The notes beneath the pieces are model-generated. The model made no database searches. It saw only the letters and a list, made by a program, of their open reading frames with translations, and was not told the DNA's origin. Below, one piece after another: positions 34,952 to 37,900 of a stretch of 64,000 bases of DNA (the stretch's first letter is position 1; every line of letters begins with the position of its first letter). The stretch is from the human T2T-CHM13v2.0 reference genome, Homo sapiens. The DNA lies in the NCBI RefSeq assembly GCF_009914755.1, contig NC_060928.1. One strand, written 5' to 3'. Made by a program: the position numbers and the translations under genes.

Positions 34952-37900
34952 ATGACAGGATAAAATTTACACATAATAACATCAGAACTCACCCGTAAAT
35001 GATGAGTTAACGGGTGCAGTACACCAACATGGCACATGTATACATATGTAACAAACCTGTTCGTTGTGCACATGTACCCTAGAACTTAAAGTATAATAAA
35101 AAATAAATTAATTAATTAAAATAAAATAAAAGAAAAAGAAAAACTACTCATACTTCATAATTGGCTAAATGCTCCAATTAAAAGACACACACTGGCAAAT
35201 TGGATAAAGAGTCAAGACCCATCAGTGTGCTGTATTCAGGAGACCCATCTCATGTGCAGAGACACACATAGGCTCAAAATAAAGGGATGGAGGAAGATCT
35301 ACCAAGCAAATGGAAAACAAAAAAAAAAAAAGCAGGGGTTGCAATCCTAGTCTCTGATAAAACAGACTTTAAACAAACAAATATCAGAAGAGACAAAGAA
35401 GGCCATTACACAATGGTAAAGGGATCAATTCAACAAGAAGAGCTAACTATTCTAAGTATATATGCACCCAATACAGGAGCACCCAGATTCATAAAGCAAG
35501 CCCTTAGAGACCTATAAAGAGACTCAGACTCCACACAATAATAATGGGAGACTTTAACACCCCACTGTCAACATTAGACAGATCAACAAGACAGAAAGTT
35601 AACAAGGATATCCAGGAATTGAACTCAGCTCTGCACCAAGTGGACCTAATAGACATCTACAGAACTCTCCACCCCAAGTCAACAGAATATACATTCTTCT
35701 CAGCACCACATTGCACTTATTCCAAAATTGACCATGTAGTTGGAAGTAAAGCACTCCTCAGCAAATGTAATTGAACAGAAATTATAACAAACTGTCTCTC
35801 AGACCACAGTGCAATCAAACTAGAACTCAGGATTAAGAAACTCACTCAAAACCGCTCAACTACATGGAAACTGAACAACCTGCTCCTGAATGACTACTGG
35901 GTACATAACGAAATGAAGGCAGAAATAAAGATGTTCTTTGAAACCAATGAGAACAAACACACAACATACCAGAATCTCTGGGACACATTCAAATCAGTGT
36001 GTAGAGGGAAATTTATAGCACTAAATGCCCACAAGAGAAAGCAGGAAAGATCTAAAATTGACACCATAACATCACAATTAAAAGAACTAGAGAAGCAAGA
36101 GCAAACACATTCAAAAGCTAGCAGAAGGCAAGAAATAACTAAGATCAGGGCAGAACTGAAGGAGATAGAGGCAAAAAAAAACCCTTCAAAAAAACCAATG
36201 AATCCAAGAGCTGGTTTTTTGAAAAGATCGACAGAATTGATTGACTACTATCAAAACTAAAAAAGAAGAAAAGAAGGAAGAATGAAATAGATGCAATATA
36301 TAATGATAAAGGGGATATCACCACCAATCCCACAGAAATACAAACTACCATCAGAGAATACTATAAACACCTCTATGCAAATAAACTAGAAAATCTAGAA
36401 GAAATGGATAAATTCCTGGACAAATATACCCTCCCAAGACTAAATAAGGAAGAAGTTGAATCCCTGAATAGACCAATAACAGGCTCTGAAATGGAGGAAA
36501 TAATTAATAGCCTACAAACTAAAAAAAGTCCAGGACCAGACTGATTAACAGCCGAATTCCACCAGAGGTACAAAGAGGAGCTGGTACCATTCCTTCTGAA
36601 ACTGTTCCAATCAATAGAAAAAGGGGGAATCCTCCCTAACTCATTTTATGAGGCCAGCATCATCCTGATACCAAAGCCTGGAAGAGACACAACAAAAAAG
36701 AATTTTAGACCAATATCCCTGATGAACATCGATGCAAAAATCCTTGATGCAAAAATCCTCGATAAAATACTGGCAAACTGAATCCAGCAGCACATGAAAA
36801 CAATTATCCACCACGATCAAGTTGGCTTCATCCCTGGGATGCAAGGCTGGTTCAAGATATGCAAATCAATAAACATATTCCATCATATAAACAGAACCAA
36901 AGACAAATCCACATGATTATCTCTATAGATGCAGAAAAGGCCTTTGACAAAATTCAACAGCCCTTCATGCTAAAAACTCTTAATAAACTAGGTATTGATG
37001 GGACATATCTCAAAATAGTAAGACCTGTTTATGACAAACCCACAGCCAATTTCATACTGAATGGGCAAAAACTGGAAGCATTCCCTTTGAAAACTGGCAC
37101 AAGACAGGGATGCCCTCTCTCACCACTCCTATTCAACATAGTGTTGGAAGTTCTGGCCAGGGCAATCAGGCAAGAGAAAGAAATAAAGGGTATTCAATTA
37201 GGAAAAGAGGAAGTCAAATTGTCCCTGTTTGCAGATGACATGATTGTATATTAAGAAAACCCCATCATCTCAGCCCAAAATCTCCTTAAGCAACTTCAGC
37301 AAAGTCTCAGGGTGCAAAATCAATGTGCAAAAATCACAAGCATTCCTATACACCAGTAACACACAAACAGAGAGCCAAATCATTATTGAACTCCCGTTCA
37401 CAATTGCTTCAAAGAAAATAAAATACCTACTTACAAGGGATGTGAAGGATCTCTTCAAGGAGGACTACAAACCACTGCTCAACAAAATGAAAGAGAACAC
37501 AAACAAATGGAAGAATATTCCATGCTCATGGATAGGAAGAAACAATATCGTGAAAATGGCCATACTGCCCAAGGTAATTTATAGATTCAATGCCATCCCC
37601 ATCAACCTACAAATGACTTTCTTCACAGAATTGGAAAAACCTACTTTAAAGTTCATATGGAACCAAAAAAGAGCCTGCATTGCCAAGACAATCCTATCCC
37701 AAAAGAACAAAGTTGGAGGAAACATGCTACCTGACTTCAAACTATACAAGTCTACAGTAACCAAAACAGCATGGTACTGGTACCAAAACAGAGATATAGA
37801 CCAATGGAACAGAACAGAGCCCTCAGAAATAATACCACACATCTACAACCATCTGATCTTTGACAAACCTGACAAAAACAAGAAATGGGGAAAGGATTCC

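What the first reader, a model, noticed from the sequence alone, without database searches (positions are those of the whole stretch)
34981..35165. L1 carries a templated copy of its own 3' end, TSD and downstream flank inside its ORF2 start
Seen: 34995-35157 matches 39044-39206, 4049 bp downstream, at 159/163 without gaps. The copy includes the locus-specific tail (ttaattaattaaaataaaa), the 3' version of the TSD (aaaagaaaaactactca) and 7 nt of non-L1 flank (tacttca), so it comes from this locus. It has no new poly(A) and no TSD of its own, which argues against normal TPRT. The entry point coincides with microhomology: the intact ORF2 of the 56-kb L1 reads taaatgtaaatgg at this position and the 3' UTR donor reads taatgtaaatga. 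Inference: break repair by microhomology-primed templated synthesis (Pol theta/MMBIR-like), or repair templated by a read-through RNA.
Basis: partly seen in the sequence, partly recalled or inferred. Interest (0 to 1): 0.8.

Follow-up and report, generated by a model that had tools for sequence, protein, structure and literature searches.

The report
L1 patched with its own tail
An old full-length L1 retrotransposon carries, near the start of its second gene, a 163-base copy of its own 3' end, tail, target-site duplication and 7 bases of flank, which is most likely the scar of an ancient DNA break repaired by copying nearby sequence; it is real, but belongs to a known kind of repair scar.

Summary
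Window 34995-35157 equals 39044-39206 at 159/163 without gaps. The copy holds about 107 nt of 3'UTR, the patterned A-rich tail, the 3' TSD and 7 nt of flank. The TSD+flank 22-mer occurs only at these two places in the whole genome, so the donor is this locus.

- A 12-nt non-L1 filler (34983-34994) replaces 12 nt of ORF2.
- The filler forms a junction-spanning inverted repeat with the copy (fold z -3.49).
- The ORF2 hexamer TAAATG survives on both sides of the copy.

The left boundary sits exactly on the only other GTAAATG in the element, within a decamer shared with the ancestral ORF2 site. There is no poly(A) and no convincing TSD, so canonical TPRT is rejected.

Best reading: repair after L1 insertion of a break or stalled fork by templated synthesis from 4 kb downstream, finished by snap-back filler and end joining (MMBIR/Pol-theta-like). 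A DNA template is favoured (about 0.55). The element's own read-through RNA is not excluded (about 0.2). Dating by divergence is unresolved; the shared degenerate tail argues for an event later than the L1 insertion. This is a new member of a known kind, of modest interest.

The parts
32882..32898 (+). 5' target-site duplication of the host L1 (AAAAGAAAAGCTACTCA), preceded by CTCT, i.e. a TTTT/A-type endonuclease site on the bottom strand
   Evidence: read; 16/17 identical to 39183-39199
32899..34982 (+). Host full-length L1, left part: 5'UTR, ORF1, inter-ORF spacer and ORF2 ATG (34952) up to about codon 10-11
   Evidence: blastn to the other full-length L1 in the window; Pfam PF02994 L1 ORF1 RBD-like domain, E 1.6e-43; all 29 genomic relatives stop aligning between 34975 and 34982, 26 of them at 34982
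34983..34994 (+). 12-nt filler CAGAACTCACCC replacing 12 nt of ORF2 (TAACCTTAAATG in relatives). Together with the first GT of the copy it forms CACCCGT, the reverse complement of ACGGGTG at 35010-35016
   Evidence: relatives; no other copy in the window at <=1 mismatch, or at <=3 for the 17-mer; hairpin -8.3 kcal/mol, z -3.49, 2/200 shuffles; coverage test, 16 of 5778 natural 13-mers do as well
34995..35157 (+). Templated copy: about 107 nt of 3'UTR end, patterned A-rich tail, 3' TSD copy (35134-35150) and 7 nt of flank copy (35151-35157)
   Evidence: 159/163 to 39044-39206; locus-specific 22-mer unique to the two sites
35158..39148 (+). Host L1, right part: ORF2 resumes as TAATTGG-CTAAATGC (ancestral TAAATGGGCTAAATGC) and runs through the 3'UTR
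   Evidence: relatives align from 35158-35164, 23 of 29 from 35159; Pfam RVT_1 E 1.3e-21
39041..39050 (+). Decamer AATGTAAATG in the 3'UTR, identical to the ancestral ORF2 sequence at the break site; the copy starts at its G (39044)
   Evidence: 3 occurrences in 64 kb: here, the ORF2 start of the second L1 at 58296-58305, and 42088-42097 on the minus strand; the 7-mer occurs in the host L1 only at 34995 and 39044
39044..39206 (+). Donor segment: 3'UTR end, tail (39149-39182), 3' TSD (39183-39199) and first 7 nt of the downstream flank

Best explanation
A full-length L1 of roughly L1PA3-5 age had inserted by ordinary TPRT. Later, a break or a disengaged nascent strand arose in ORF2 codons 15-16, between AAATG and TAAATGG. 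The 3' end on the right side (minus strand) primed on plus-sense sequence 4,049 nt downstream in the same element. It copied 163 nt leftwards: 7 nt of flank, the 3' TSD, the already degenerate tail and about 107 nt of 3'UTR. Synthesis ended exactly where the new strand acquired the decamer shared with the break site. The junction did not close seamlessly there. The nascent end snapped back on itself, adding about 5-8 templated bases of the 12-nt filler, and was joined to the left end, which had lost 12 nt. The template was most likely the chromosomal (or sister) DNA, because it lies 4 kb away in cis. This makes the event an MMBIR / synthesis-dependent alt-EJ (Pol-theta-like) templated insertion. 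Shown: the copy, its locus of origin, the boundaries, the filler, the inverted repeat, and the absence of poly(A) and TSD. Inferred: the break itself, the direction of synthesis, the enzymes, and DNA rather than RNA as template.
For: The copy and its locus-specific origin are established. The left boundary falls on the only homologous GTAAATG in the 6.3-kb element, and 13 of the 14 relatives shown have AATGTAAATG at the ORF2 site. There is no poly(A) and no flanking repeat of 7 nt or more. A 12-nt filler replaces 12 nt of ORF2. The filler plus the start of the copy forms a 7-bp inverted repeat with 35010-35016, with z -3.49 and 2/200 shuffles folding as well; 16 of 5778 natural 13-mers are covered as well. 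TAAATG is present on both sides of the copy, as expected if a strand left after copying it and came back through the donor's homologous decamer. Differences lie on both lineages, showing independent decay after a single duplication: 35020 T is insert-specific (29/29 relatives have C), and 39112 A is donor-specific CpG decay. The two copies share a tail of identical length with 32/34 bases identical, including 9 shared non-A bases, whereas tails of the 27 relatives displayed all differ. The duplication therefore postdates most of the tail's decay. Germline templated insertions with microhomology and up to five templates are documented (PMC8421209, passages read).
Against: The left junction is not a clean microhomology junction: the base before GTAAATG is C, not the ORF2 T. 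Use of the decamer therefore rests only on the coincidence of the boundary. The right junction has no microhomology at the joint, only ATGG in register 3 nt further in. A 163-nt insertion is long for typical Pol-theta fillers (recalled). The filler statistics are post hoc. Dating does not separate the event from the L1 insertion: pair divergence is 4/163, and Poisson P(<=4) is 0.026 if the element has 3.1% per lineage but 0.46 if 1.5%. Nothing in the sequence distinguishes a DNA from a sense-RNA template. No outgroup genomes or reads could be examined.
Confidence: 0.55

Rival explanations
1. RNA-templated repair, resembling endonuclease-independent L1 insertion or a class 2 templated sequence insertion. 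A read-through or cryptically cleaved sense transcript of this same L1, still near its locus, was reverse transcribed (by ORF2p or Pol theta) from the right-hand break end, starting at or near the RNA's 3' end at 39206. The cDNA was then joined at the left by microhomology or filler.
For: The inferred direction of synthesis needs a plus-sense template, which a sense transcript provides. The copy ends at a CA (39205-39206) 32 nt after an AATAAA at 39169-39174 and within about 22-27 nt of two AAGAAA hexamers (read). The lack of TSD and poly(A), a small target loss, extra nucleotides and microhomology are the stated hallmarks of NCLI/ENi loci (PMC1920257, passages: 15/21 with extra nucleotides, 18/21 with target deletions) and of class 2 TSIs of 73-414 bp (PMC5110952, parts 1-2).
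Against: An RNA patch landing in its own 6-kb source locus by chance is very unlikely, so a cis-tethered nascent RNA must be assumed. Described TSIs come from distant loci. NCLI fragments are 3'-truncated L1, whereas here the 3' end is complete and overshoots into the flank. The A-rich tail offers many signal-like hexamers, so the coincidence with a cleavage site is weak, and no downstream GU-rich element is visible. The element may already have been silenced when the event occurred.
Confidence: 0.2
2. The event was concurrent with the original TPRT. During second-strand synthesis on the first-strand cDNA, the plus strand jumped from the ORF2 decamer to the 3'UTR decamer. It ran through the tail, the TSD and 7 nt of displaced flank, then jumped back to ORF2.
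For: A minus strand joining flank, TSD, tail and 3'UTR exists in a TPRT intermediate. The 10-nt homology could mediate the forward jump. The divergence of the two copies (1.2% per lineage) lies within the range of the element's own private divergence, 0.8-3.5%. The internal TSD copy carries the 3' version, which is compatible.
Against: The model needs two switches that return to the same 6 nt. It also requires that the highly patterned 34-nt tail (11 non-A bases, 9 of them shared) was already in the RNA, whereas the tails of the relatives displayed all differ. The one similar tail (L003) belongs to an element lacking the host's lineage markers. No pure poly(A) remnant is present. The filler is not explained.
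Confidence: 0.06
3. Two steps: a 4.2-kb tandem duplication of the segment from the ORF2 start to flank+7, followed by a 4,049-bp deletion of the first copy between the two AATGTAAATG decamers. A variant: a clean templated insertion followed by a separate local template-switch mutation that rewrote 12 nt at the left junction.
For: It reproduces the order of segments and uses the decamer. The 12-for-12 length-preserving replacement and its reverse-complement match to adjacent sequence resemble short-range template-switch mutations (recalled).
Against: It needs two rare independent events at the same few bases. No remnant of a larger duplication is seen.
Confidence: 0.07
4. Independent nested insertion of another L1's 5'-truncated 3' end, or an assembly artefact.
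For: A repeat annotation alone would show a roughly 107-nt L1 3' fragment nested in an L1.
Against: The tail, TSD and flank are specific to this locus, and the best foreign match is 95% over the L1 part only. The four mismatches and the unique filler argue against a collapsed or chimeric assembly. Reads could not be checked.
Confidence: 0.03

Closest known systems
MMBIR-type templated insertions (MMB-TI) / FoSTeS template switching (Osia et al. 2021, PMC8421209, passages read)
   Same: The insertion is copied from nearby sequence while the donor is retained. There is microhomology at a switch point, signs of more than one template, and the event is fixed as a germline variant without gross rearrangement.
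   Different: One junction lacks microhomology and the other is interrupted by a filler. The template is 4 kb away and happens to be the element's own 3' junction. No enzyme dependence can be shown.
Class 2 templated sequence insertions (Onozawa & Aplan 2016, PMC5110952, parts 1-2 read)
   Same: A patch of a similar size class (experimental range 73-414 bp), with no TSD, no poly(A), a microdeletion, microhomology and extra nucleotides.
   Different: Those are defined by distant donors and are argued to be RNA-derived. Here the donor is 4 kb away in cis, and an RNA origin is unproven.
Endonuclease-independent / non-classical L1 insertions (Sen et al. 2007, PMC1920257, passages read)
   Same: An L1-derived fragment at a non-consensus site, without TSD or poly(A), with extra nucleotides and a small target loss.
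   Different: NCLI fragments are 3'-truncated by at least 20-25 nt. This fragment has the complete 3' end plus genomic tail, TSD and flank, and sits inside its own source element.
L1 3' transduction by canonical TPRT
   Same: The sequence downstream of the L1 poly(A) signal travels with the 3' end of the L1.
   Different: There is no new poly(A), no TSD and only 7 nt of flank, and no offspring copies elsewhere in the genome.
Pol theta snap-back / synthesis-dependent MMEJ fillers (recalled, no paper read here)
   Same: A short filler that is the reverse complement of sequence a few bases inside the adjoining DNA, primed by 2 nt.
   Different: Only 5-8 of the 12 nt are explained, and the long 163-nt tract is atypical for this pathway.

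Membership tests
LINE-1 element inserted by TPRT (the host element) | ORF1 and ORF2 (RT) coding capacity | tested here: met
   Pfam PF02994 E 1.6e-43 and RVT_1 E 1.3e-21; 92-95% identity over 1.5 kb to 29 genomic L1 copies
LINE-1 element inserted by TPRT (the host element) | Flanking TSD, A-rich tail and a TTTT/A-type nick site | tested here: met
   17-nt TSD 16/17 identical (32882-32898 / 39183-39199), tail at 39149-39182, CTCT|AAAA at the 5' edge
Canonical TPRT insertion / 3' transduction (the 163-nt insert) | Untemplated poly(A) at the 3' end of the insert | tested here: not met
   TACTTCA is followed directly by TAATTGG
Canonical TPRT insertion / 3' transduction (the insert) | TSD flanking the insert and a TTTT/A-like target | tested here: not met
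   Only TAAATG / TAATTG (5/6), overlapping the donor's own GTAAATG. The implied nick, ATTTA/C, is a poor endonuclease site. The left flank is a non-L1 filler
ENi / non-classical L1 insertion (Sen 2007 criteria) | No TSD, no poly(A), non-consensus site | tested here: met
ENi / non-classical L1 insertion (Sen 2007 criteria) | 3' truncation of the L1 fragment by at least 20 nt | tested here: not met
   The fragment includes the full 3' end, the tail, the TSD and 7 nt of flank
ENi / class 2 TSI | RNA (cDNA) origin of the patch | not testable with these tools
   There is no intron, editing or cap signature. Only a weak coincidence of the right end with a CA downstream of signal-like hexamers
MMBIR-type templated insertion | Insert templated from a retained nearby donor | tested here: met
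   Donor intact 4,049 nt downstream, 159/163
MMBIR-type templated insertion | Microhomology at template-switch junctions | tested here: inconclusive
   The left boundary falls at the unique 7-10-nt homology but is separated from ORF2 by the filler. The right joint has 0 nt, with ATGG displaced by 3 nt
Pol theta snap-back filler | Filler is the reverse complement of adjacent sequence, primed by 1-4 nt | tested here: inconclusive
   CACCCGT / ACGGGTG, z -3.49; post-hoc p about 0.003-0.004; 4-7 nt of the filler are unexplained

The most novel reading that the evidence does not exclude
The scar is a natural germline fossil of transcript-templated break repair in cis. The L1's own nascent read-through RNA, cleaved at a cryptic site at 39206 and still tethered to the locus, was reverse transcribed from a break end 4 kb upstream in the same element and used as the patch.
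Probability: 0.2. Interest if true: 0.6.

Novelty: new member of a known kind. Interest (0 to 1): 0.3.

Why it matters
The scar is a well-preserved, datable example of templated break repair in the primate germline. Its donor can be identified without doubt, because the donor carries a locus-specific tail, TSD and flank. Both junctions still show the traces of the event: a unique microhomology, a snap-back filler and a small length-preserving replacement.

A single case changes nothing in principle, because germline templated insertions and non-classical L1-derived patches are already described. The anatomy does suggest a useful genome-wide screen: search every TSD-bearing retroelement for internal or nearby copies of its own 3' junction. 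Such a set could measure how often local DNA, rather than local RNA, serves as the repair template.

Tried and rejected
- **Nested insertion of a foreign L1 3' end:** rejected by the uniqueness of the TSD+flank 22-mer and.
- **Source of the 12-nt filler:** none found in the 64-kb window at <=1 mismatch (12-mer) or <=3 mismatches (17-mer). Only short reverse-complement or direct 6-7-mers lie next to it.
- **Dating the event against the L1 insertion by divergence from 29 relatives:** inconclusive. 48/1536 differences from the majority, but only 12-24 of 1545 are private.
- **Mutation cluster around the junction:** there is none beyond the filler and the bases nearest the joint. The 34900 bin has 12 differing columns, of which 6 are one 6-nt deletion.
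- **Other loci joining an L1 3' end plus tail to the ORF2 start:** 0 of 39 non-self scored hits span the junction. Only 40 of 587 candidates were scored, so this is not a genome-wide negative.
- **Inheritance of the tail pattern from a progenitor:** one element (L003) has a similar TTAATTAATT tail, but it lacks the host's lineage variants. I treat this as convergence.
- **Bacterial-type promoter/terminator scan downstream:** uninformative for a human locus.

Full report
**Observation.** The claimed repeat is real. The repeat finder reports 34995-35157 and 39044-39206 as a 163-nt direct pair at 98% identity with spacing 4049. An ungapped comparison gives 159/163, with mismatches at 35020 (T/C), 35063 (G/A), 35106 (A/C) and 35127 (T/G). 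Similarity is lost abruptly on both sides.

**The host element.** The host is a full-length, plus-strand L1 at 32899-39182.
- It aligns end to end with the second full-length L1 of the window at 56280-62331.
- It encodes an L1 ORF1 RBD-like domain and an RVT_1 fragment.
- It is flanked by a 17-nt TSD, 32882-32898 and 39183-39199, identical at 16/17. The 5' edge reads CTCT|AAAA, a canonical nick site.
- The internal copy contains about 107 nt of 3'UTR, the 34-nt patterned tail, the 3' version of the TSD and the first 7 nt of downstream flank. The 8th base differs.

**Origin of the copy.** The 22-mer spanning TSD and flank occurs without mismatch only at these two places in the 3.1-Gb assembly. 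The 4 other hits carry 1-2 mismatches, against 6 hits for the reversed control pattern. The best foreign match to the insert is 95% and covers the L1 part only (40 of 1091 candidates scored). The insert is embedded in ORF2, while the 3' copy is continuous with the 3'UTR upstream and the flank downstream. The 3' junction is therefore the donor.

**Junction anatomy.** Fourteen plus-oriented relatives, out of 29 loci fetched, were read across the site. Thirteen of them have AATGTAAATG there, and the most common reading is ...ACACATAACAATATTAACCTTAAATGTAAATGGGCTAAATGC.... All 29 relatives stop aligning to the host between 34975 and 34982 (26 at 34982) and resume at 35158-35164 (23 at 35159). In the host:
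- ORF2 is recognisable up to 34982.
- Then come 12 nt, CAGAACTCACCC (34983-34994), that are not L1 and have no other copy in the window.
- Then comes the copy, beginning GTAAATGA.
- After TACTTCA, ORF2 resumes as TAATTGG-CTAAATGC. This is TAAATGGGC with one substitution and one deleted G. Other genomic L1s align from 35158/35159, which supports that reading.

So 12 nt of ORF2 (TAACCTTAAATG) are replaced by 12 foreign nt, and the hexamer TAAATG is represented on both sides of the copy. There is no A-run after the copy and no flanking repeat apart from that hexamer.

**The microhomology is not chance.** AATGTAAATG occurs three times in the 64 kb: at the donor (39041-39050), at the ORF2 start of the second L1, and once on the minus strand at 42088-42097. 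Within the host L1 the 7-mer GTAAATG occurs only at the insert start and at the donor start. A random boundary would hit that position with a probability of order 1/1000 or less.

**The filler.** The filler plus the first two bases of the copy reads CACCCGT, the reverse complement of ACGGGTG at 35010-35016. The 50-nt junction folds as DNA at -8.3 kcal/mol against -3.07 +/- 1.5 for shuffles (z -3.49; 2 of 200 fold as well). In a coverage test, 16 of 5778 natural 13-mers of the host L1 are covered as well by 6-mers of the adjoining 40 nt, and the shuffle p is about 0.004. These tests are post hoc.

This is what snap-back synthesis would leave. The terminal AC of a minus strand whose 3' end lies at 34995 pairs with an internal GT, and extension gives GGGTG... 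That implies the 163 nt were synthesised from right to left on a plus-sense template.

**Timing.** Over 1.5 kb the host differs from the majority of 29 relatives at 48/1536 sites (3.1%). Only 12 of 1545 differences are strictly private, and 24 have the host allele in at most one relative. The two copies differ at 4/163, or 1.2% per lineage. Poisson P(<=4) is 0.026 at 3.1% per lineage and 0.46 at 1.5%. Divergence alone therefore does not separate the event from the L1 insertion.
- The differences lie on both lineages. 35020 T is insert-specific (29/29 relatives have C). 39112 A is donor-specific CpG decay, and the insert keeps CG. A private TT at 39109-39110 is shared by both copies.
- The stronger argument is the tail. 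Both copies have the same length and 32/34 identical bases, including 9 shared non-A bases. Tails of the 27 relatives displayed are all different. The one superficially similar tail (L003) belongs to an element lacking the host's lineage markers.
- If tails start as near-pure poly(A), which is established knowledge that I recall rather than tested, the duplication postdates most of the tail's decay.
- Using a recalled rate of about 0.17% per Myr, the point estimate is about 7 Myr for the event, with a Poisson range of roughly 2-18 Myr, and up to about 18-20 Myr for the element.

**Mechanism.** Canonical TPRT or 3' transduction is excluded: there is no poly(A), no TSD, a poor nick site and no offspring elsewhere. 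The simplest account is a single lesion at ORF2 codons 15-16, repaired by templated synthesis in four steps:
1. The right-hand 3' end primes at 39206. The only pairing in register is ATGG, 3 nt in from the joint.
2. It copies 163 nt.
3. Synthesis stops when the nascent strand gains the decamer homologous to the break site.
4. The end is finished by snap-back filler and end joining to a left end that lost 12 nt.

This matches MMBIR-type templated insertions, which are known as germline variants with microhomology and up to five templates (PMC8421209, passages). It also matches the junction features of class 2 templated sequence insertions (PMC5110952, parts 1-2) and of non-classical L1 insertions (PMC1920257, passages).

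**DNA or RNA template.** I favour DNA because the donor lies 4 kb away in cis. An RNA patch would have to return to its own locus, which requires a tethered nascent transcript. The RNA rival keeps some weight for two reasons: the inferred direction needs a plus-sense template, and the copy ends at a CA 32 nt after an AATAAA in the tail. A template switch during the original TPRT, and two-step histories, are possible but less parsimonious.

**Literature on this specific structure.** I searched 'LINE-1' with 'internal duplication', 'template switching' and 'target-primed reverse transcription'. Two papers held all four terms. One, PMC2912911, was checked by term search and only lists 'internal duplication' among uncharacterised insertions. 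The other (bioRxiv 10.1101/2024.08.27.596794) was seen only as a search listing with the start of its abstract. Searches on templated insertion with LINE-1, on templated sequence insertion, on endonuclease-independent L1 insertion and on MMBIR listed no title on an L1 carrying an internal copy of its own 3' junction; only the papers named above were opened. These searches cover open-access text only.

**Verdict.** It is a clear, single example of a known kind of repair scar, and its interest is modest. Its main value is as a template for a genome-wide screen that could separate local DNA-templated from RNA-templated repair.

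Noticed in passing
window 16403-17676: A 5'-truncated L1 on the minus strand with a 5' inversion of the twin-priming type. Host-L1 coordinates 37885-38792 align directly to 16773-17676 (95.5%), and 38795-39152 align inverted to 16772-16407 (86%). Only 2 nt are missing at the inversion joint.
   Followed up: partly
window 34952-34963 and 34930: The host ORF2 is dead independently of the insert. 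Codon 4 is TAA, where relatives have TCA, and 6 nt (CGAGCA in relatives) are missing from the inter-ORF spacer.
   Followed up: partly
window 33659-33692 and 36731-36760: Two small tandem duplications inside the host L1: 17 nt x2 at 88% identity, and 15 nt x2 at 93%.
   Followed up: no
window 33700-34982 vs 35159-36298: The ORF1 region of the host is only 85-91% identical to the best genomic matches scored, while ORF2 and the 3' end reach 92-95% over longer stretches and 96-98% over 142 nt at the ORF2 start. This suggests an ORF1 type that is rare among the copies scored, or that the closest relatives were not among the 40 scored.
   Followed up: partly
L003 (G000:C3:137435905-137439036), minus strand: A short, 5'-truncated L1 whose tail begins with the same TTAATTAATT motif as the host's tail and which also has T at the position of the insert-specific 35020 change. 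It lacks the host's other lineage variants, so this is probably convergence.
   Followed up: partly
window 42088-42097 (minus strand), within 41911-42254: A third copy of the decamer AATGTAAATG lies in an old, minus-strand L1 fragment that is 68% identical to the host.
   Followed up: no
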